From contig OX597815.1 of the NCBI GenBank assembly GCA_951406725.2, positions 137,826,001 through 137,890,000 of the forward strand: 64,000 bases of DNA, written 5' to 3'. The notes under the pieces were generated by a model. That model had not been told where the DNA came from. It saw only the letters and a program-made list of their open reading frames with translations, and did no database searches. A program made the translations under genes and the position numbers. Positions 8,730-62,631 of this stretch are shown piece by piece; the stretch's first letter is position 1; the number at the start of each line of letters is the position of its first letter. The DNA is from Octopus vulgaris. Lineage: Eukaryota.

Positions 8730-11683
8730 GTAAATTGAAAACTTTGTTTTATATTCCTATATAAAGAAGAGCAATGCTATAATTTCTAGTTATTGTATTT
8801 GTTAGTCACCAGTGCATAGCTATTGTTATTGGTTCTTTTCAAATAAATCACATATAGTGACAATTAGAATGTACTATTGTGAAGGAAAAAACAAATGTAT
8901 ATCCATGACTACAATCATCATTATCGTTGTCATGATCATGATGATGATCATCATGTGTTGTTTTTTTTCTATGCTGACATGAGTTTGATGGGTTGTCATG
9001 GGTTGAATCAATTCTTGTTTGAAGTTACTGTGCTCTTAGATGCGTGTTGTATAAGTGAGAGAATAGAGGATGAGTGAAGCTAGGACATCCTTCACTAACC
9101 CTGTTTTAGCTTTTTGTTTGCCATGCATGTACAGATTTCATCACATGCCGGGGGAAAAATTAGAAGTGGTTGATAGCTTCCGCTACCTAGGCAACCAAGT
9201 CTGTAGTGGGGGTGGTTGTTCTGAAAGTGTAGCAGCTAGAATAAGAATAGCCTGGGGAAAGTTCAGGGAGATCCTACCTCTGCTGGCAACTAAGGGCCTT
9301 TCCCTCAGGATGACAGGTAGATGTATGTTAGTTAGTTAATTTGGCTCAAAAGCAAATAGCAAGGCCATGTAGGGGGACATGGAGTTAAGTACAGGGTGGT
9401 GTTCATGTAAAGAGTTCAGGCCACTTGAAGTCCAGGGAGGCTTTGAACAAAGCGGTCGTCGGCATCTTCACCATCTCGTCTGGCAGCTTGTTCCACGGAT
9501 CCGCAACCCGGACGGAGAAAGCTCCTCTCCTTCGATTGAGATGAAATCGTCGCAGGTAGAGCTTTTCGGAATGACCCCGCAGCCGACGCTCCGGAGCAGG
9601 AGTGAAGAACAGCTCTTTCGAGAGGTTACACTTCCCGCTTATGATGTTGTGGGCGAGAATGAGATCACCACGGCGGCAGCGTTTTTCAAGAGAATAAAGG
9701 TCGAGCGTCCTCAGCCTTTCTTCGTAGGACAAATTTTTGAGACCATGAACCATGCGGGTAGCCAGCCTCTGGACTCTTTCGAGATGTTGTATGTTTTTGA
9801 GGAGATAAGGAGAAGAGGCTTGAATCCCATACTCCAATATGGGTCTCACCAGCGTGACATAGAGTGGTAGGAATATGGCTGCTGTGAGCATTCCGAATGA
9901 CCGTCGAATCAAAAACAGAATTCCGTGCGCTTTGTTGGCAGCATGGACGCACTGGGCCGAAGGCGAAAAGGAGGAATCCACCAAGATACCCAGGTCCTTT
10001 ACCTGATTGGTCCTCTCCAGCAGCAGACGACCCGGCTCGAAATCAAGTTGAGTTGCAGGAGTAGAGCCGACAGGCAGATGACAGCACTTTGACACGTTCA
10101 GACACAGGTCCCAATCGTTAGACGATGCATGTGTGTGAACTGCCACGCTACACGGCACTGAAACATGGGCCGTGACTGCTGAGGACATGCATAGGCTTGA
10201 AAGAAACGGAGCTAGTAAGACCTGCTAGATGTGTAATGTCAGTGTGAGCGCCTTGAGAGAAAAGTTGGACATAAGAAGCATCAAATGTGGTGTGCAAGAG
10301 AGATAACTATGTTGGTATGGTTATGTGTTACATATAGATGAGGACAGATATGTGAGGAAGTGCCACACCCTAACTATGGAAGGAACCTGTGGAAGAGGTA
10401 GTCCCAGGAAGACATGGGATGAGGTGGTGAAGAATGACCTTCGAACATTGGCTCTCATGGAGGCAATGACAGGAGACTGAGATCTCTGGAAATATGTTGT
10501 GACTGAGGAGACCCGGCAACTAAAAGTACCCTTGATGCGTCAGGTGATAGATATGCTTGAGAAGACCCTTTGAATCAAGTAAAACTAAAATTGTAGCTGT
10601 GGTCACTTCCTCTTGACTGGCTTCCATGCCGGTGGCACATAAAAATGCACCATTCAAGTGTGGTTGATCCAGGTTTGTCTGACTGGCTCCCGTGCTGTGT
10701 GGCACATAAAAAGCACCATCTGAACGTGGCTGATGCCAGGCCTCCTGACTGGCTCCTGTGCCAGTGGTATGTAAAAAAACACTATCCGAATGCAATCAAT
10801 GCCAGGCCCACTTGACTGGCTCCTGTGCTCGTGGCACATAAAAAGCACCCACTACACTCTCAGAGTGGTTGGCATTAAGAAGGGCATCCAGCTGTAGAAA
10901 CATTGCCAGATCAGATTGGAGCCTGGTGCAGCCACTGGTTTTCGAGACCTCAGTCAAACTGTCCAACCCTTGCCAGCATGGAAAACGGACATTAAACGAT
11001 GATGATGAGGTACAATTTGCCAGTTGTTGCAGCCCTTTATGCTGTTTTCAGGAATCTGAACTTCATGAGATCCTTCTTCACCACTTTGTCCGATGCCTTT
11101 CTAGGTTTCCCTCTTCCACAAGTTCCATCCACTTTGAGTATCTGGCACTTTTTTATACTGCTGTTTCCATCTATATGCATAACACACCTATACCAGCACA
11201 GACATCTCTCTTGCTCACTCATGTAATTCTTCTTATAGTCAGCTTTTCTTTCAGCTCAATTGCTCTCTATCATTCATGCACACTGATATTACATAGCCAG
11301 TGAAGCATCATTTGGTACAGGCATGGCTGTGAGGTTAAGAAGCTTATTTCTCAATCAAGTAGTCTTGGGTTTACTTGCATTGTGCTGCCCCTTAACAAAG
11401 TGTCTTGCTACTATGGCCTGGGCCCACAAAACACTTGTGAGTGGATCTGGTAGAAACTGAAAGAAGCCTCTCATATGTGTGTGTTGCCCTTGTCTTGATA
11501 TCATGTGATAATTGTAAATGAGCAAAGCCATCAGTCAAGTGTTGTTGTTCGTTTTATGTCTAAGAAGAAAAACGGGTCTTGTTTGGAAATAGAAGAAAGT
11601 TGGTGACAGAAAGCATGAAAATTTGCTTTGACATTCTGTCTGACCCATTGCAGGCATGAAAAAGTAGACATTAAATGGTGATG

Positions 11684-23700: not shown

Positions 23701-26700
23701 TTCAGCAGCCATACCTAAGAGCATCAGAATGGTCATACATCTAGGATTTGTATCACAGAAATCCAATATTTTAAACTGTTATTTATTTATTAATCCAAAG
23801 AGAAAGTGTTCTGTTGATTACTTTATGCTCTCCTTTTGTTGAGAACTGTGCAAGTTCAGTGCGAAATCTTGGGATGAATCAGAAATAGGAGTTACTAAGA
23901 TGAGAAGAGATAAAATTATTGCAGAATCATTAAAAGATACAGTGAGAGGACACAACTGACTTGTGGGCCAAGGATTGTTGAGTATTGTTGAATGTAGCAT
24001 GGCTTTTAAGTTGGATGGAATTTCCCTTGGATGAGGTTGAAGATATAAACAAAGTTTCAGAAAATCTATCAGCTACATTAAATCAAATGGAGTTTGTATT
24101 TAATTTTTAAAAATTTACTTGTTAATTCTTACAGTTCTGTATTTAAGAGATGAGGAATTATGTACATTATTTACATTTGATGAATATTTGTCCTCATCTT
24201 GTTTGCTGTTAACACAACATTTCGGCTGGTATACCCTCCAGCCTTCATCAGGTGTCTTGGGGAAATTCCGAACCTGGGTTCTCATTCCTAAGTTATTTTT
24301 CGATGTTGTTATTATTATTATTCAGATCACTGCCTGGAATCGAACTTGGAATCTTGGGGTTAGTAGCCTGCGCTCTTAACCACTACGCCATATGCCCGTG
24401 GGCATATTCTTATTTAAATTACTGTATTTCCACTGTATTTTGTTGACTAACCACATAGGTTGACTTAGTGATTACTTTCTTATTTTATAGGTGTTACTGT
24501 GAGAAAGAACGTGGAATGCCCAAACATCAACTAATATCAAATCAAATGAAAAAATTATCATTTTCTGAAGATCAACCTGCCCAAGTAGGTAAAATCTCTA
24601 ATGACAGTTTTTTTTTATTGAGATAATGGGACATATTGGGTAGAGTATTGAGGGTTTATTCCAATGTAGTTTGAGAAGCATCTGAATTATTCCCCTAATA
24701 TTCATAGTTTCAGTTGTCTGTAAAAGTATTTTAAAAAACATGTATACTTCTTGTTTGTCTTAAAAACCATTTGGATTTTGTAAGGATAACAGGAAGTTTT
24801 TCTGTGTCTCTGTGATTTGTTGTTGGCTAATAACAGCAAGTAGCTATGAGGTTTTCACATCATGTATAATCAATGGCTTTGCTGCAATACTTTTTGCAAA
24901 ACTACCAAAGTTAGTAGTTGCTTATCTTGAAAATGGGACATTGACATCCATCATGTGTTTGTGTAGATTAGGGTAGATTCCTGCAGATAGAGAAGGAGTC
25001 AAAAGTTTGATGAGTATAGGAGCTAACTCTGATTGTTTGCAGGTAGTGGAATATACATCAGAGGTTGAGTTAGTGTGATGAGGAAATTTTTTGAATTTGA
25101 TAACTATACATTGTAGCAAAACTGGGATCTGGAGAAGAGTTTGGGAAAGAATTTGTTATTAACATATGCAGTTTAGAGTTAGAGGCAAATACGATGGTTT
25201 TTATCTCAGTACCTTCCTCTTGGAAGACCAGAAGTTTGTGATAATGTAGTCATTCAGTACAAATGCATTCTTTATTTTTCAGATGGTCTTTTGTAGGTGC
25301 TACTGATAGGTTGGCACTTTGCTGTGGTAATGTTCATTGACTTCCTCCAGATGTTATAAGTAGTGTTCTTCACTTGTACATCTGCAACTGAACTGTTTGT
25401 ATGTCTTGCAGTTGTGATCTTTGTGTTAGGATAGTGGAGGAACATAAAAAGGATGGTATCAATCATCTTCTTAGCTATCTCAGAATTTTGGCATTGAGCT
25501 GTCATGGCCTGGACATATTGCACTCATTCCACTGTTCTCTCTGTTTCTATATATCAGCAGATTCTGCTCCTCTATACTTCTCATTGCATCTGTGCATCCC
25601 AAGTTTGAGACTGGTAGGGCTATTTGTGTGGCTGCTATTTCTCTTCATGTTTTCCATATGCTTGTTGTGCATGTATTTGGGGGTGGTTTTTTATTATAGT
25701 GGCAGTGATTGTGAGAGTTAAAGCTTGCTGCAAATTGTACCCTCATGTGTCTAGATGATCTGTTGTATTGTTATTTCATTTTGTATGTGGTCTCTGTGCA
25801 ACCTCTGTACAACATTTCAGTGTTCCTTGTAGCTTATGAGTTGTTGTGAAATGCTTATGCCAGCCAGGACTGACATAATCTAATATGGATCTAATGTAGT
25901 GTTTGTACACCATTGTTGTTCCCACTTTCTATTGCCAAATATGGGGCCTATAATTTCTCTAATTATATCTGCATTGTACTACTTTCTTCACTGTTTTCTC
26001 CTTAGTAAAGAATGAATTGTGAACGTCTGAGTTTAATATTGCCTTATTACTTTCTGGGTAGAAGTGTATTTTTCAGTTTTTGATCCTGCCTTCTTTGTAG
26101 CATCTTTTTAAAAAACATCTTATAAGCACATTTGCTTAGTGGCTGCAGTACATGTATGTTATTTGAGGTTGTTAATGTGATAATGGATCATCATCAGCAT
26201 CATCATTTAATGTCTATTTTCCATGCTGGCATGGGTTGGATAGTTAGACAGGAGCTGACTAAGTCAGGAACTGTACCAGGTTCCATTGTCTGTTTGGAAA
26301 TGTTTTCTACAGCAGGATACCCTTCCTAACACCAACCTCTTTACTGAGTGTACTGGGTGCTTTTTATGTGGCACCAGCCCCAGTACTTTCTACTTTACAC
26401 CAGAACCAGTGCTTTCTACTTGGCACTATCACCAGTGCTTTTTACATGGCACCATCACCAGTCCTTTGTATGTGGTACTTATTGTTGGTGATATTTCTGT
26501 TTGTTTTTTGTTTTATGTTGATACAAATGTTGGTCATTTTTCTGTTGTTCTGTGATTTATTTTTCACTGTTTCTTTGTTTAGTTTGATACTGTGTTTTAT
26601 TTCTGTTATATATGGTGTTGGTATATTGTATTTGAGATTGTCTTTGGCTATTAATGAGTTCAATCATTTCATATATGTAATTTGGGGCATATTTATTAGG

Positions 26701-38900: not shown

Positions 38901-41900
38901 ACATTTTTGATAAGAATACAAAAAAAGCACTTATTTCTCACATATTTTATATTAAAGCAGAAATCACAAGAAAGTGGTCATACCATGGTTGAAAAGACAG
39001 CTACAGTTGAAAGATTTAACTAGTTTTCGGCTAGTTGGTCTTTCAAAACGAAAAAATAACACGATACCCCGTTCTATCATGGTGAGTCATTAATTCATCT
39101 TATTTTGAAAACTGTATTTCTTTAATTTGCATTTTCTCAGAACTTTACTCATGGTTTCTTAAACAAGGAATGATAAATGGTTAAGTGAGGTGAAATATCA
39201 TCTTCATTTTGCCTCCATTTTTCAGTGCTGACATGGGTTTGACAACAGCATCTTGCCACCTGTCTTGGACCCTCATTTCCTAATACACACAACAATAGAC
39301 AAAAACCTTCAATCTCTGTAGTGTATATCATGGGTTTGTACTTCCTATTGTCAACCACTTTATACCATCGCTTGAGTATATTTTATCATGCCATCAGCAC
39401 TGGAGAGATTGTCTGCCACAATTAAAGATAACCTTCTACCTAGTATCAAAGCTACTGCTCTCCTTGTCAGGCTCCCTTCAGTGTAGCTGGTAGTGTTTGT
39501 GCTTATCATTTATTTATTTTTATAGATTTTACAGTTGGATGCCTTTCTTATTACCAACTACTTTACAGAATTTGACTAAATGCATTTTGATGTTTGTATG
39601 ACACCTAACTTTTGCATCTGTCCAACATTAATACAATTGTAGTGTACGCTTAGGGAAATTCCTCTCTCCCTCTTATATATACATAAATACGAGCGTAGTA
39701 GATAACAACTAGCCTTCAGCCACCCTTTTCGACTCTGTTGTGTCCACTACTCTGATTGGTTGGTATAGGTGCAATTTGTCTCTTGCTCTATTGTGGGCCA
39801 AGATGCAACCCAACCAATCACAGCCTTCTGATAAGGTCACATGAGACAGTCTCTTCCAAACTTCCAGTGAGCCAATAGCACACTATGAAACTCTAGCGAC
39901 ACACCATCTTGATGTCTTTTGGTTCCAGGCCTTTTGAGGTCTAACCACTGACCACAGAGCACACAGCCAGTTCCAGCGACGACATAACAGCAGCCATATG
40001 GAGACTTATCAACACACTTCTAATAGCATATGACAATCTCTTTTTTCATCGCCTCCATTTTCTTAATGTCGTCAACAACATCGCTGTACATACACAGCAA
40101 CCAGCAACCCTCGCACAGGTTCTATCTCAACACTGTTTGTGAATTACTTCACCTTGGTTAGCAGCAAATACAACCTGCGAGAACTTCCTGTATCAAGTGA
40201 CTGGCAACAGCATAGTAGCCACAACTTCTTATGCAACATGTGCCTCAACCGGCTCTGCATTACTGCCACAACTTCTTGTTACAGCACTTCAACTACCGTG
40301 TACCGATACTACAAACTGGTATTTATCATCCTTGTATCTGAACATTCTTCTAACGTCATATTATAGACTCTTTCAATGCTCTGTACTTAATGCACACACA
40401 TACACTTTGTATACATGATGGCCTGTCTATTATTATGTATATATGACGCATACACACACATGTTAACATATAAAAACAATCTTCTCTTAAACATTCTACC
40501 CGGTTGTGTCTTTCTTGTCCTTCTGGCACTTATACTCATTTATCCTTTTCACATTTATTGTATCAACCGTGTGGTGTAGTAAAGGAGCCATTCGCGTCAC
40601 CTCTCCTCACACAGTCGTTTACACAATTACTGTCCAGTTAGTTAAAAAAGAACTGATTTAACTACGCAATGTATTATATATGATAAAGTCTTAAAATGAT
40701 CTTTGTAATAATTATTGCATATTTTCTGGGGTTTTTTTCTGTAGGTATATGATTCCATGTTATTTTATTCTGCATAATTTAACTCTGTTTACATCTTGAT
40801 TCAACCCCATGCACTATTTCATTCATTTGTTCAGGAGAGCCCCTCTCTATCTCTACCTTTTACATTTATTCATTACATTGTACACATAACTCAGTTTTAG
40901 ATTTGATAATCCTAGTAATATAACTACCACCTGAATTATACGGGCTGGTATAATTATTTTACTTGTGTCTCTGCATATAGTGTATTATCTACAAGGTGGT
41001 ATGGAAAGGTTCCTAAACTAGTTATGTTTAATAAAAAATAACTTTTATTACCTAATTTTCAACATCATCACCTTCAAAATAGTTGCCTTGCATAGCAATA
41101 CACCAGTCCCATTGTTCCTGTCACTTTTGGAATTTGACCTGGAAGTTATTTTCTATAAGTGAGTCGAGGAATTTCTGCAATTTGCTCTGGATCTCGACAA
41201 AGGGGTTAAAACAGCAATCTTTGAGCTGAATTTTCGTCTTGGAGAAGAGATGGAGGTTTACAGATATATCTTAAAATTGGATTCAAGTTTAGTTACCACA
41301 GAAAATCATAAGAAGAGCAAAACAGAACAAGGTGAAGTCTTTGTTAATAATATTATTTATTTAGAATATTTTGTGAGTGATCAGAATGAAAATAATACCC
41401 ACTGGAAATACAATTTTGGACCATATGAAGATTTGATGCTAATATAGGCGTAAAACTCAGTTTATACTACAATTACAGTGTGGAAGACACATATTAGACA
41501 TTCAGATCACACAAATAAACCCAGTACACTCTGAAAAGTGGTTGATGGTAAGAAGAGCAACCACCCATATCAAAATATGTCAAAAGTGGAAGATATGGAT
41601 GAAATTTAATGAGGGCAGTAACTTTATAAAAAAAGCAACTTGATCTGTAACAGTGCCAGCATGAAAAAGTGGGCATGAAATGATAATTAGGTCACAACCA
41701 AATTTACCTGCTATCTGGCTTGTTAATTTTGAGAATGCAATTAGTCACCAACAAAAAAAGCATGAGCAGGAAAAGGGTTTGGGATAACCCATAGATTTCC
41801 TACAGTTTACTAATACACTAATGTATCAATGCAAAAATGGATACCTTCAATTGTATGTTGCATATATATATATTATATATATATGCCCTTCCTAACGCCA

Positions 41901-42163
41901 ACGTTAGGAGTGGTTGGCGTTAGGAAGGGCATCCAGCTGTAGAAACTCTACCAGATCAAGACTGGAGCCTGGGGCAGCCATCTGGTTCGCCAGCCCACAG
42001 TCAAACCATCCAACCCATGCTAGCATGGAAAGTGGACATTAAACGACAATGATGATGATGATGATATATGACTTGGGTTCATGCAACTTAAAGTTTTTTT
42101 GAGTCAAATTCTTTAGAGTGTGATTCTTTCTGATATATGTTTTTTTAATTTAACTGACTCTCT

Positions 42164-42253
<90 letters not shown>

Positions 42254-42321
42254 GAAGAAAAATAAGATGGAGATTGTGAAGTTAATAAGAGTTTATTATG
42301 AAAAACAAATTGATTATTATC

Positions 42322-42379
<58 letters not shown>

Positions 42380-43129
42380 GATGTTTGTAATTTTCCCTTG
42401 TTAACAATTAACACAGAAAAAATAGATAAATATTTACCAGGGTAGCAAAATATAACACAAGTAAAAAGGTTGTGACTCCTTGTTTTTAAAGGTAGAAACT
42501 CCGGGTTTACATGAAATATTTTGTATAATATATATAAATAATTGAATGGAGTTAAATGCAGGTTGTATTCAAATTCTTCTACTTCCGACACATTTTGAAG
42601 ATATCACTGGTATTATTCCCTGAAGAGAAGATTACATTGTTTTACACCATTTTATTCATTTGGAATAATACCAGTGATATCTTCGAAACATGTTGGAAAT
42701 AAAAGAATTTGAATAACACCTGAGTTTAACACCATTCATTTATTTTTTTATATATAGGCGCAGGAGTGGCTGTGTGGTAAGTAGCTTGCTTACCAACCAC
42801 TGCATGGCACCTAGGGCAAGTGTCTTCTACTATAGCCTTGGGCCAAAGAAAGCCTTGCGAGTGGATTTGGTAGACGGAGGCTGAAAGAGGCCCGTCATAT
42901 ATATGTATACATATATGTATGTGTGTGTATATGTTTGTGTATCTGTGTTTGTCCCCCCAACATCGCTTGACAACCGATGGTGATGTATTTACGTCCCTGT
43001 AACTTAGCGGTTTGGCAAAAGACACCGATAGAATAAGTACTATTTTAACGAATAAGTCCTGGGGTTGATTTCCTCAACTAAATGTGGTGCTCCAGCATGG
43101 CCACAGTCAAATGACTGAAACAAGTAAAA

Positions 43130-43183
<54 letters not shown>

Positions 43184-46100
43184 ATGTATGTATATATATA
43201 TATATATATATATTGTGTTCAATTCCTTGAACCTACTTTGCAATAAACATTTATCATTATAAATAATATTTAGAAGAAAATGTGTTCTTTAATTCTTTCT
43301 AATTTGATATTTGCCATGATGAAAAACCCAATAGACTAGAGAAAGTAACAAGAAATTTATCAATTGATGGCATTTTAGTTTTTGAAAGAGATTTCTTATA
43401 TTCAGTTTGAATTTATGGTTATTCTTGAGTACTAGCATGGTTTTGCTGTTAAGAAGTTTGCTTCACAAGTATATGGTTTTAGGTTCAATCCTTCTGTGCA
43501 CTACATTGGACAAATGTCTTCTACTATAACATCTGGTTCAATAAAATCTTGTGAGTGAAATATAGTAGATAGAAACTGTATGGAAACCTGCCTCAGGAAA
43601 GATTCTTGTTCTTGGGTGGAAGACTTAATCTGTTGCCCAGTTTATTACTCCTTCTGTTTCCAGATGCCTTTGGCAGAATTCACTCAGTTGCTACCAGTTA
43701 CAGAGGCCTTGAAAAGAGTTTATGACCTCTGCCCTTCCTTAACTAACTAAAGAAAATAATGAGAGCAGAATTATTTTATGATTATTTTTGCTATGTATTT
43801 GTAACTACATTGTCAAAATATATGTTTTACTTATTTTCAGAACTATGTTAGTATTTTGGACTTAGAAAAACGTGTAGTATGTGCACCTATTTATGAGGTA
43901 ATGTCTCATTTTATTTACAATTTTATTTAATAATAATGAATTAATATTCACTAATTAACTTACATATATTTTGTTAATGTTTCATACTGGTATAATTAAT
44001 ATAAAACTGCAAATTGTTTCATTTGCATATCCTCTAAATTCAGATATTTTAAGACTGAATAGCTTCTTCATAAATCAAAGTAGAATTGAAACTGCAATAT
44101 ACTTTTTTATGGATGAAGAATTCAAATTATTTATTTCTTAATTGGACAGAGTGTCAGTTGTTCGGGGGGAAAAGAATAGTTGATTATATACACCCCAGTT
44201 CATCAAGTTTATTGATCCTAAAAGGATGAAAGGTAGAGTTGGCATTAACAGGTCTTGATGATGATGACACTTAAAGAAATTAAAACATTACTTACATCAT
44301 TAAGATGTCTTTGAAATGGTTATTGATGTAAACTTTGGTGAACTCAGTTGCATAATAAAAACAATTTTGCCCGATAGCTATTAACTTGGTATTGTAACTT
44401 AATCACTTTGAAAAATCAGTCAACTGTTCACCTCTTTATGTAGAAGATACTGTAACACAAAGCAATCAGAAGAGGTCTACTGTAAGTACCTGGGGATTAC
44501 ATTAACATGATATTCACTTTTAACAATCTATATATAATAGTTTCATAGTGTTTGCTTTGTAGATGTGTATTTCTGTATGTAATGTATATTTTAATATATT
44601 ATATTTTGATGACTGTTGTACAACTACCCTCTTTGTGTTTTATTAATTCTTTCATAAAAATCTTCTGCTTAACAAAGTCTGATTTTCCTAACATTATTTT
44701 CAAGGTAAAAATTGTATTATTGATTATTATCAGTGTTTCTCTTAAAAAATTTGATATTGAAAATATAAAAGTCTAGTTGATGTTCTATAAAATAATGTGT
44801 ATTTTATTTATACATTAAAATACAAAACCTTGATTTCACTTCCCACTAAACTTATCCCTTCCAGGATAGGCAGTTTCAGTTGGTTTGGTAAGAAAAGGGT
44901 TAAATAATGCAATACATTTTGTTGTTAACTCCAAGTGATCCCTAATCCAGCAGACCTATGATAAAATGTTCCAGTCTTGATCAACCAGTTTTTCTTTCAC
45001 ACCCTCAAAAAGTGGGTTGAATATTAAGATTTTTCAGTCTCATTGTGTGTTTCAGTTTACAATAAATTTCACAACCATTTGGTTTATTTACATCCTACAC
45101 AAAGCCACCTCTCTTAGTACCACCTTCTCTTCCAGCCTAGGGGTCTTTGTCTTACAAGTTACTTGGCAACTCTATTAGTGCTGATGCCACATAAAAAGCA
45201 CCCAGTACACTTTATAAAGTGGTTGGCATCAGGAAGGGCATCCTGCCATAAAAACCATGCCAAAGTAAACATTAGAGCTCAATGCAGTTCTCTGGCTTGC
45301 CAACTCCTGTCAAACTGTCCAACCCATGCCAGTATGGAAGATGAATGTTAAATGATGAAGATAGTATTTAGTTCTGAAGATGTGTTTGTGTTGCTCAACT
45401 CTTGATATCAACCAGCTGTCTTTACAGAGACAGGTTCTATGACATTATCAAAGTTTTATAATAGCCTGAAATCTTTTTCACAATCTTTAATTGATCAAGT
45501 GTAGATAAAGATATGAAAGTGCTTGGCTCAATGGTTAGTGTTGGGCTCACAATCATGAGGTAGTGAGTTTGATTCGCAGACCAGGCTGTGTGTTGTGTTT
45601 TTGAGCAAGACACTTTATTTCACATTGATCCAGTTCACTCAGCTGTAGAAATGAGTTGTGATATCATTGCTGCCAAACTGTATTCGCCTTTGCCTTTTTC
45701 TTGGACAACATCGGTGGTATGAAGAGGAGAGGCTGGTCTTACATAAATAACTGCTGGTCTTCCATAAATAACCTTTCCTGGACTTGTGCCTCAGAGGGGA
45801 ACTTTCTAGGTGCAACCCCATAGTCATTCATGATTGAAGCAAGTTTTTACCCTTTTACTTCAGAATGAGAGCTAAATGGCTACCTGGAAAACTACCATTG
45901 TGGCAGAGTAGGATATAGTCTAGTCTCCAGTATAGTTAATCAGGTTGTCCACGAAGGAGTCATAATCAATGATTGGTGTAGCAGCATTACGGTTAACTTC
46001 TACAAAGGCAAAAGTGATGCTTTAAACCCAAATAATTACAGAAGTATCAAATTGCTGGACCAGGTAATAAAAGTCACAGAAAGGGTCATAGCTCAATTAA

Positions 46101-48703
46101 TTAGGAACAGAGTTAGTGTAGATGAGATACATTTTGGATTTGTGCCAGGCAGGAGCACAACTGATGCTGTATTCCTGGTTATGTAACTTCAGGAGAAATA
46201 TTTAGCCAAAAATAAACCTCTGTACTTGGTTTTTGTCAACATGGAGAAAGCCTTTTACAGAGGACATGCGTAGGCTTGAAAGAAATGAAGCTAGTATGCT
46301 TCACTGGATGTGCGATGTCAGTGTGCATGTACCACAGAGTGTAAGCGTCTTGAGAGAAAAGTTGGACATAAGAGGCATCAGACGTGGTGTGCAAGTAGAC
46401 GACTGTGTTAGAACGGTCATGTAAGACATATAGATAACAGCTGTGTAAAGAAGTGCTGATCTCTAACTGTGGAGGGAACCTGTGTAAGGGGTAGACCTTG
46501 AAGTCATACGATGAGGTGGTGAAGAATGATCTTCAAACCTTGGGCCTCACAGAGGCAATGACAAATAACCAAGACCTTTGGCGATATGCCGTACTTGAGA
46601 AGACCTATCAAACCAAGGGAAATCATAGTCATGGCCAATACCAGTGTCACGTAACTGGTGGCACATAAAAAGCACTCATTATGCTCTTCGAGTGATTGGC
46701 ATTAGGAAGGACATCCTGCTGTAGAAGCTATGTTAAATCAGATTCAATTTCAGTCACACTGTCTAACCCATGCCAGCATGGAAAGCAGATGCTAAATGAT
46801 GATGATGATGATGATTCAAATATTTCCAGTAACATGACTGAGAGATAAAATGCTACATTTTTCTTATATTCTCTAGGGTAAAATAGTGAATTCTTTGCTA
46901 CGACAATTACAACTTTTCCAGAACAATCCTGCAGCTTATCTTGCCTACATACACAGGTACTGAATATTTTTCTGATTCTTTCTTTTTTCTAATTTTAATT
47001 TCCCTATCTACTCTGTGGAAACTAATGAGTTTAACATTAATGTGGAGAGGCAATAGTTTATACTCCACTCAACTAGTTTCTTTTTATTAGTTTTTATTCA
47101 TTTGTCTGGGTAGAAAGATAATATCTATGACCATACTAGCCTCACTGACAAAGTAGACTGATGTGGTTAATATTTTGTGTGAACATCTGTCAATCAATGT
47201 CTAAAAAAATTCTAAGCAGTGTTGGAATTCAGAGAGTTGCAAATTTGGGGAGGAATGATTGAGAAAAAGTTTTAATATTGGGTTTAAATGTATTTGACAT
47301 AGTAGGTGTGAGAAAAGAGCAAGGATGGGCTTCAATGGAGTGATATATATATATGTCCGACACTCGCATCCCAAAACAGCTCTTCTACGGTGAACTCGGC
47401 CAGGGCAGGCGCAAAGTTGGAGGGCAGAAAAAGCGCTACAAGGATAGTCTCAAGGTCTCTCTCAAAGACTTCTCCATCGGAACAGAGACCTGGGAGACAC
47501 TTGCTGCCAACCGCTCATCCTGGCGCAGCGCAATCACCGTGGGAGCAGGGACAGCCGAGGAGGGATGGATTCGGTCAGCGGAGCAGAAACGTCAGATGCG
47601 TAAAGTCAGAGCCGCCTGCACCAGTAGCATGGCCCCTACCCACTTCTGCCCCACCTGTGGGAGGGGCTTCCTTGCCCGGATTGGCCTCACCAGTCACCTC
47701 CGGTCTCATGGCGCCAGTTCCATCAGATGATGTCAGTTGGTCATCTTCGAACCGAAGGACGAACATTATATATATATATATAAATTGCTATTTAATTGGA
47801 ATAGAAACTGTTGTTGTAACCGATAGAAAAGTGAAACAGCCCATTTGAGCTGTAGTGCAGCACTACTTAAAGTGGTGGTCCATGGACCAATGCTGGTCTG
47901 TGAGCCATCAGCTGCTGGTATGCAGCGAGTTTCCAGAAAAGAAAGAAAGAAATATTATAAAATGCTTATGTGATATTGTATTATGTGTTTACAAAATAAA
48001 TATACGATGAAAAAATTGTCAACTTTTATTATATTCATTATATATATTGTTTCTGGTATAAATTAATATTACTAAGAAATATTACCAGTACCTAGTACAC
48101 TGGAAAAAAAATGCCAGTATGCCACATCAGATAGTTTGGGAAGCACCGCTCTAGTATGTTGGTAAATGTACCTTCCTCAGTTAACCAAGTGACCTTCTTT
48201 TAGGTGTTTTTCATAGATGTTTGTGTATGTAGCAGCAACACCATCCTAGATTTGTTACTTGAGTATCTCGTGTATTAAGAGTATTACCATTCAAGATGTG
48301 AGCAGTACTTCAAAATATATGTAACAGAAATACCAGCCAAGATCTATACTTTGGCTTTTGTGATTGTCAGTAGTTGATCAGGGCCAAAGTATTCTCTCAC
48401 CCTGAAATTATATCCCAGATTTAGCAATGATGTCCACCAAAAGATATCAACGGTTGGGAAGTTAAACATTTGCAATGACTTTGAGAATTTTAGTTGTGTG
48501 TTGCTTAATTAGAATATGTGAGGTGTCAGGCTATTTCCTTCATATATGTAATGAGTGTATCTTCCTCTTTGACAGAATCATTGTCTATTGTTCAAATAGA
48601 TTATTTTTGCCTTGATCCTGTTGGAAGACTTTGTGGTGGTGGGTGGGGATCTCTCTTGATGCAGCCTTGTGAATGGATTTTATAGATGGAAACTGAAAGA
48701 AAC

Positions 48704-62087: not shown

Positions 62088-62631
62088 ATCGTCTGGAAGC
62101 CGTTCAGTGATGTGCAACCAAAAGAATACCCTCCATCAGGCATTTGCTATATTCTGAACGCCTTACTTCCCTGGGCATGGACACATTGGAACTCCGACAT
62201 CTGGCAGCTGACTTGGCAGACACCCATAAAATTATTAACCATCTTATAAACAATAACTCTGAGCACCTTTTCAAACTCCACCCGTCTAACACCCGTGGAC
62301 ATATTTACAAAGTCAGAAAACAGCACAGCTCCCATGACTTTAGGAAACATTTTTTCACGCTGAGAGTTGCTGAAGCATGGAACAAACTGCCGGCATCAGT
62401 TGTTAGTTGTTGGAGCACTGCATCCTTCAAAACTTCCATGCTTTCTGAGATTCGCCAACACTACACCTGATTTTCTCCCCTCCATACACACACAAGCATG
62501 TATCTGACTCATATATTGTTTGCTTTCCAGACATTTGTACATTACTGCATATACTTTATACGCACTTTCTGACAAGTTGTGGTGCACCTGAGCACTGTAT
62601 ACAATAATTTCATTATTATATTATTATTATT
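62088..62631 (+). mobile_element. CR1/L2-group LINE 3' end
   Basis: YSERLTSLGMDTLELRHL..HFFTLRVAEAWNKLP; (TTA)n tail; the same 3' tail appears decayed at ~235-398. Confidence 0.9.

What the first reader, a model, noticed from the sequence alone, without database searches (positions are those of the whole stretch)
42537..42745. Sense-strand hammerhead hidden in a fold-back inside an SMCR8 intron
Seen: ~83 bp inverted arms (42537-42619 and 42662-42745). Overlapping them is a + strand hammerhead, UUCC-CUGAAGA-GAAGAU..AUCUUC-GAAA-CAUG-UU-GGAA (42616-42698). Its 3' half lies in the right arm, so the long hairpin and the ribozyme fold are mutually exclusive. It is the only hammerhead found here in the pre-mRNA orientation. 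Inference: the inverted arm (typical PLE 5' inversion) could sequester the ribozyme and let it persist in a transcribed intron, or act as a conformational switch that ADAR editing could shift.
Basis: partly seen in the sequence, partly recalled or inferred. Interest (0 to 1): 0.75.

Follow-up and report, generated by a model that had tools for sequence, protein, structure and literature searches.

The report
Decayed fold-back stub of Penelope retrotransposon
This hairpin in an octopus gene intron is two head-to-head leftover ends of a common jumping gene; the self-cutting RNA motif inside it is real but worn and predicted to be locked shut, so it is likely ordinary genomic debris, not a switch.

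Summary
Arms at 42528-42619 and 42662-42753 (85% complementary) enclose a sense-strand type I hammerhead in SMCR8 intron 39082-43840. The locus is a head-to-head pair of 5'-truncated terminal-repeat copies of a Penelope-like retrotransposon with Hydra-clade features: a minus copy 42380-42619 and a plus copy 42616-42753, joined on a 4-nt overlap. The family ribozyme is real, with compensatory changes across subfamilies, a self-complementary helix III (dimer type) and an unusually long helix II. The fold-back is routine: 22 of 53 family loci are head-to-head, and 9 of 29 other core-intact copies have an antisense arm over the ribozyme. Both arms have drifted about 7% from the family majority with no compensatory change. 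The hairpin beats the ribozyme fold by a predicted 41 kcal/mol, and still by 22 after modelled editing of all 57 free paired adenosines, so an ADAR switch is not supported. This copy also lost most of stem I, cannot form helix III alone, and has no second full hammerhead of its family in the window. RNA data gave no test. The scan noted this architecture before on other DNA of this genome.

The parts
39082..43840 (+). SMCR8 intron holding the insertion (between exon blocks 38962-39081 and 43841-43897, GT..AG)
   Evidence: tblastn and exact peptide mapping of P0001; exon 36846-37001 matches human SMCR8, E 0.0015
42326..42377 (.). (TA)n run at the left boundary, likely insertion target
   Evidence: sequence; (TA)n preference listed for Hydra PLEs in PMC8557442 File S1
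42380..42619 (-). Long-ended 5'-truncated element copy (family positions 47-286). Lacks CUGAAGA; supplies the antisense arm; its far part is the 5' UTR that precedes the ORF in a long copy
42616..42619 (.). 4-nt overlap (microhomology) joining the two copies; junction 18-mer occurs once in 2.8 Gb
42616..42753 (+). Short-ended 5'-truncated element copy (family positions 1-138) carrying the hammerhead
42616..42698 (+). Type I hammerhead: 4-bp remnant stem I, core 42620-42626, long helix II 42627-42684, GAAA 42685-42688, 6-nt palindromic helix III 42688-42693, predicted site after U42694
42528..42753 (+). Predicted 92-column hairpin in the pre-mRNA (78 WC, 3 GU, 11 mismatches, 4 of them A-C)
42754..43128 (+). 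Unrelated very high-copy repeat abutting the plus copy (SINE label recalled, not tested)
   Evidence: depth; 11 HSPs of 60 nt or more in the window including itself

Best explanation
The hairpin is a head-to-head pair of 5'-truncated terminal-repeat copies of a Penelope-like retrotransposon, likely made in one insertion into a (TA)n tract, and its hammerhead is predicted to be permanently inactive in the SMCR8 pre-mRNA, a likely neutral fossil. Shown: the two copies, their polarity, the 4-nt overlap, the family, and its ORF and ribozyme anatomy. Inferred insertion route: two cDNAs were primed from the two target strands, one from the long end in the 5' UTR of the next tandem unit and one from the TA-rich short end. 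They stopped at family positions 47 and 1, annealed through their complementary 4-nt 3' ends and were filled in. A simple snap-back of one cDNA does not fit, because the 42-nt loop belongs to the short copy, which lacks positions 139-286. Inferred RNA behaviour: the left arm is transcribed first and captures the ribozyme's 3' half as it emerges. The duplex may be edited by ADAR, but editing would not release an active ribozyme.
For: Family: 2134 candidates; 296 exact core matches, reversed control 0. Long copy L114 has two terminal-repeat hammerheads about 3.2 kb apart around a broken ORF. That ORF is 73% identical over 422 aa to an intact 778-aa sister ORF, whose model (pLDDT 82.9) has telomerase RT as its top five PDB matches. 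Inversion is routine: 22 of 53 loci are head-to-head, 9 of 29 position-ordered other copies have an antisense arm over the ribozyme, and L125 and L134 are similar tight fold-backs. PMC8557442 describes inverted 5'-truncated copies as frequent. One source for both copies: both arms carry the shortened helix III and a C at position 122 seen in 1 of 68 other copies. Drift: 17 of 240 and 9 of 138 substitutions from the majority; 5 of 14 non-WC arm columns are transitions at family CpG sites; none is compensatory. Energetics: 41.4 kcal/mol, P about 4e-29; 22.0 with all 57 free paired A as inosine. Four of 6 intact family copies have stems I and II in their minimum-energy fold; this copy does not.
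Against: No RNA or cleavage data: only contigs were available and none listed bridges the junction. The core words, stem II and a perfect 6-nt palindrome survive in this copy. U at the cleavage site is allowed (PMC3138052 passage; several Hydra rows in PMC8557442 File S2). Without the arm, stems I and II have P 0.14, so latent dimer activity is not excluded. The inosine energy model is approximate. The comparison loci were picked by likeness to the window, which favours young copies.
Confidence: 0.87

Rival explanations
1. Passive filter: the ribozyme was active enough at insertion to harm the sense pre-mRNA, and this insertion was tolerated because its own inverted arm masked it. No regulation is involved.
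For: Masking is predicted to be complete and co-transcriptional. Intact family copies can fold as hammerheads (4 of 6). Active intronic hammerheads lower expression (PMC11856399, passages). A preprint reports retrozymes depleted from Xenopus introns (10.64898/2026.07.22.740005, passages).
Against: Stem I was cut to 4 bp by the truncation itself, helix III needs a partner copy, and a single PLE minimal hammerhead showed no detectable cleavage (PMC4209133). Masked copies are not more intact than unmasked ones: 3 of 10 against 13 of 20, with 3 unparsed rows counted as not intact and genic context unknown. Only two convincing hammerheads lie in the window part of this gene, one per strand.
Confidence: 0.09
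2. Regulated switch: ADAR editing or a helicase opens the hairpin so that the hammerhead folds and cuts the SMCR8 pre-mRNA.
For: The two folds are mutually exclusive and the duplex holds 63 paired A residues.
Against: The gap is 41.4 kcal/mol, with a minimum of 19.6 over all inosine trials. Core A 42686-42688 are themselves in the duplex. Four A-C mismatches would be closed by editing (inference). The arms are the least alike of 15 pairs compared, 72 of 84 against a median of 93% (biased sample). No second full hammerhead of this family was found in the window.
Confidence: 0.02
3. A MITE or other DNA transposon with terminal inverted repeats, with a chance hammerhead.
For: 92-nt inverted arms flanked by TA.
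Against: The arms are unequal pieces of one longer linear element. All other top matches begin at the junction (query position 16-18) or later, and most continue upstream in a different shared sequence. The junction is unique. Upstream lies an RT-endonuclease ORF.
Confidence: 0.01

Closest known systems
Hydra-clade Penelope-like elements, including Hydra-1_Obim of Octopus bimaculoides (Craig et al. 2021, PMC8557442; passages, section 11, supplement part 2 and searches in it)
   Same: Single RT plus C-terminal endonuclease ORF; DKT; no CCHH pair inside GIY-YIG; CxxC and CxH around the E and N; (TA)n targets; type I hammerhead near the 3' end with self-complementary helix III; inverted 5'-truncated copies (noted for Penelope-13_HM).
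   Different: Hydra-clade rows of File S2 have loop II of 3-10 nt, whereas this family has 46 nt folding as a further helix tier and an inner hairpin. The ORF has RW but not RWK, and no CxCx5C linker. It is not the Hydra-1_Obim family itself (different hammerhead; protein likeness judged by eye only).
Dimer-type hammerheads of metazoan PLE terminal repeats (Cervera and De la Pena 2014, PMC4209133; parts 1-2 of 4 read)
   Same: Short palindromic helix III, enlarged helix II, G10.1-C11.1, mostly dispersed single truncated copies, and pairs on opposite strands 100-700 bp apart already noted.
   Different: [quoted passage not shown]
PAc Poseidon element of Anolis (Frangieh et al. 2024, PMC11167929; passages)
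   Same: A 'tail' that is the start of the next tandem unit, ending at an AC-rich stretch; AT-rich targets; hammerhead in the terminal repeat.
   Different: In PAc the ORF starts inside the ribozyme; here it starts about 240 nt after the cleavage site. Protein-assisted cleavage is untested here.
L1 twin priming (recalled; only search listings seen)
   Same: 5' inversion joined on microhomology, priming from both target strands.
   Different: L1 arms cover non-overlapping template parts (recalled); here both copies cover positions 47-138, which makes the fold-back.

Membership tests
Type I hammerhead ribozyme | CUGANGA, GAAA and NUH core | tested here: met
   H17 is U here, C in 23 of 30 family copies
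Type I hammerhead ribozyme | Stems I and II supported by covariation | tested here: met
   16 distinct copies: 88.3% cells paired, 7 pairs with two-sided change, slid controls 29-48%. 0 of 500 shuffles reach three measures; 77 and 337 of 500 reach the other two. RNAalifold recovers only two tiers of helix II.
Type I hammerhead ribozyme | Helix III formable within one molecule (this copy) | tested here: not met
   2 bp around a 2-nt loop; the strand self-dimerises at -7.0 kcal/mol
Dimer-type PLE hammerhead | Self-complementary helix III | tested here: met
   the two free central bases self-pair in 62 of 62 distinct strings (8 clusters). By eye, 3 of the first 100 rows do not and 1 is unreadable.
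Type I hammerhead ribozyme | Self-cleavage at the predicted site | not testable with these tools
   no raw RNA reads
EN+ Penelope-like element | Telomerase-like RT | tested here: met
   top five Foldseek hits of the sister ORF model are TERT, E 8e-9 to 2e-8; YRDD. Pfam found no domain in the ORF itself.
EN+ Penelope-like element | C-terminal GIY-YIG endonuclease | tested here: inconclusive
   motif words present; Pfam GIY-YIG in 5 of 29 homologues, best E 0.0012; domain not fold-searched alone
EN+ Penelope-like element | Pseudo-LTRs with hammerhead, 5' truncation, inverted copies, one-sided tail | tested here: met
Hydra clade | DKT; no CCHH; CxxC and CxH flanking E and N; (TA)n targets | tested here: met
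   sister ORF L112 against section 11 of PMC8557442; the window family's own ORF in L114 is decayed
Hydra clade | RWK motif and CxCx5C linker | tested here: not met
   RIRWL and a cysteine-free linker in L112, so filed as Hydra-like, not as a proven member
Hydra clade | RT phylogeny with reference Hydra elements | not tested
ADAR-controlled RNA switch | Two folds close in energy, shifted by editing | tested here: not met

The most novel reading that the evidence does not exclude
Head-to-head Penelope insertions carry their own antisense silencer. Across the genome, sense-strand intronic copies of this long-helix-II hammerhead survive mainly when the inverted arm masks the ribozyme, so the inversion works as a built-in safety catch that lets ribozyme-bearing retroelements colonise genes. 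This locus would be one instance.
Probability: 0.1. Interest if true: 0.6.

Novelty: new member of a known kind. Interest (0 to 1): 0.18.

Why it matters
The locus itself matters little: it is one of hundreds of similar stubs. Two by-products have some value. First, the family defines an octopus PLE hammerhead with a conserved, covarying, much-extended helix II in at least 6474 related copies. It is absent from the one published Hydra hammerhead table I saw, and it is a good substrate for asking whether PLE hammerheads need the element's protein. Second, the same copies give a ready genome-wide test of whether sense-strand ribozymes are selected against in introns.

Tried and rejected
Rfam scan: no match. 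Pfam on 11 window ORFs, on a family endonuclease fragment and on the 778-aa ORF: nothing above cut-off. PDB sequence search of the ORF alone: noise; with the profile, one retron RT at E 0.004. The protein atlas gave no answer. Sequencing runs: no RNA holder listed. Two layings of contig runs were swamped by other family copies and by the neighbouring repeat; no listed contig bridges the junction, and editing, RNA ends, age and polymorphism could not be read. This is no evidence either way. My first head-to-head count was spoiled by (TA)n in the reference and was redone. There I dropped 8 of 61 loci: 3 window self-copies, 2 duplicates and 3 near-identical duplicates of L007. Pairs further apart than 320 nt were not counted, so 22 is a lower bound. 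Snap-back of one cDNA was rejected on geometry. C17-to-U as proof of a dead ribozyme was rejected, since U is allowed. The search 'hammerhead'+'octopus' returned nothing on octopus ribozymes except the preprint of the Hydra paper among 15 listed of 51. Searches showed, by listing, no paper on inverted PLE arms masking intronic hammerheads; this covers only the open library. Supplements of the bioRxiv preprint and of PMC4209133 were not seen and may show long-helix-II motifs.

Full report
Observation. The arms lie at 42528-42619 and 42662-42753, 85% complementary around a 42-nt spacer. The stretch folds at -96 kcal/mol, better than all 200 shuffles. A homologue named SMCR8 by its source (P0001, 98% identical to a window exon) maps as 20 exon blocks on the plus strand, and the element lies in intron 39082-43840. 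The only other convincing hammerhead my descriptor found in the window is on the minus strand at 24206-24259. One per strand says nothing about orientation bias.

What it is. A search of the own genome with 42600-42745 gave 2134 candidates, 40 scored. Every other top match starts at query position 16-18, the junction. In most of those copies the sequence runs on upstream into a shared stretch that encodes an endonuclease-like C-terminus, and downstream into about 150 nt that match the window's minus strand back to 42380. The locus is therefore two copies of one linear element joined 5' to 5': family positions 47-286 on minus and 1-138 on plus, overlapping by 4 nt. The junction 18-mer occurs once in 2.8 Gb. 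A long copy, L114, has two family hammerheads about 3.2 kb apart around a broken ORF, and positions 140-286 are the 5' UTR leading into that ORF. An intact 778-aa sister ORF (73% identical over 422 aa) models at pLDDT 82.9, with telomerase RT as its five best PDB matches. It has DKT, no CCHH pair, and CxxC and CxH at the C-terminus, as in the Hydra clade (PMC8557442 section 11), but lacks RWK and the CxCx5C linker. I call it Hydra-like. GIY-YIG support is weak, 5 of 29 homologues in Pfam.

The family ribozyme is real. The exact core of this subfamily occurs 296 times (control 0). A looser pattern that excludes it finds 6474 relatives (control 5). Across 16 distinct copies the named structure pairs in 88.3% of 409 cells, with two-sided changes at 7 of 26 pairs, against 29-48% for slid controls. 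Three of five measures beat all 500 shuffles and two did not. RNAalifold on its own recovers two tiers of helix II only. The two free central bases of helix III self-pair in 62 of 62 distinct strings from 8 clusters, the mark of a dimer-type hammerhead (PMC4209133, parts 1-2 of 4). Loop II is 46 nt, against 3-10 nt in the Hydra rows of PMC8557442 File S2.

The fold-back is routine. After dropping 8 self or duplicate loci, 22 of 53 loci hold a head-to-head pair. By eye, 17 of the 22 have one long and one short end like this one (half of the loci were fetched by the long end). In the first 30 of the 296 exact cores, taken in genome order, 10 have an inverted arm over the ribozyme within 1.5 kb. 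That is 9 of 29 without the window, or 7 of 27 after merging two pairs that are halves of one insertion. L125 and L134 are tight fold-backs like this one. PMC8557442 (passages) describes an inverted 5'-truncated copy and a one-sided tail as usual for PLEs.

This copy is drifting. The minus and plus copies differ from the family majority at 17 of 240 and 9 of 138 sites; the median of 71 other copies is 4.8%. Both arms carry the 2-nt-shorter helix III and a C found in 1 of 68 other copies, which points to one source element (inference). All other changes are private to one arm. Five of the 14 non-Watson-Crick columns are transitions at family CpG sites, and none is compensatory. The arms are the least alike of 15 pairs (72 of 84, against a median of 93%), though the comparison set favours young copies. 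The truncation removed the 5' part of the 6-plus-5-bp stem I seen in intact copies. The cleavage base is U rather than the usual C, which is still permitted (PMC3138052 passage).

How it behaves as RNA (predicted). The hairpin beats a fold with stems I and II by 41.4 kcal/mol. During transcription the left arm pairs with 42662 onward before the ribozyme's 3' half is out. With ViennaRNA's inosine model the gap falls to a mean of 37, 30, 24 and 22 kcal/mol at 25, 50, 75 and 100% of 57 free paired adenosines, and never below 19.6. The core adenosines lie in the duplex, so editing is at least as likely to damage the core (inference). Without the arm, stems I and II have P 0.14, but helix III needs a second copy. 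The left copy lacks CUGAAGA and no other family copy lies in the window. A single PLE minimal hammerhead gave no detectable cleavage (PMC4209133), and PAc's needed protein and left no read ends in RNA-seq (PMC11167929, passages).

Insertion route (inferred). Both 3' ends face outward into TA-rich DNA. The long end stops at an AC-rich stretch just before the ORF, as the internal start described for PAc. The two truncated 5' ends share 4 complementary bases. Two cDNAs primed from the two target strands and annealed at their ends explain this; one cDNA snapping back does not.

Verdict. The feature is real and the PLE-inversion reading is right. The switch is not supported, and protective masking is possible but unneeded. 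I had this reading before opening earlier notes. Two later-read notes describe the same architecture elsewhere in this genome; they are unchecked AI notes and not support. New member of a known kind; interest 0.18.

Noticed in passing
L112:3170-5503 and L113:1287-3620 (G000 C5 and C1): A young sister element with a nearly identical intact 778-residue frame in both loci (three such frames and dozens of equal-scoring pieces). Its terminal-repeat hammerhead has a variant core, CCGAAGA, with U at 11.1 and A at the cleavage site.
   Followed up: partly
G000:C1:40931795-40938492: 13 tandem 534-bp units plus one inverted unit, each with a long-helix-II hammerhead; shorter arrays of the same kind at C1:5.01 Mb and 13.78 Mb; retrozyme-like.
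   Followed up: no
window 24206-24259, minus strand: A second, unrelated short-loop hammerhead in another SMCR8 intron, antisense to the gene.
   Followed up: partly
L007-L058, head-to-head pairs: 17 of 22 pairs have one end near family position 286 and the other at 121-152 (by eye); the long end lies in the 5' UTR of the next tandem unit.
   Followed up: partly
L125 and L134: Tight fold-backs of the same family; in L125 the arm covers nearly the whole ribozyme at 95% identity.
   Followed up: partly
window 9403-10224 minus, 45869-46186 plus, 47344-47730 plus, 62111-62470 plus: ORF pieces that look like non-LTR retroelement remnants inside SMCR8 introns; only a weak RVT_1 hit, E 0.009, for 45869.
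   Followed up: no
window 42754-43128: Very high-copy repeat directly after the plus copy (depth); SINE label recalled.
   Followed up: no
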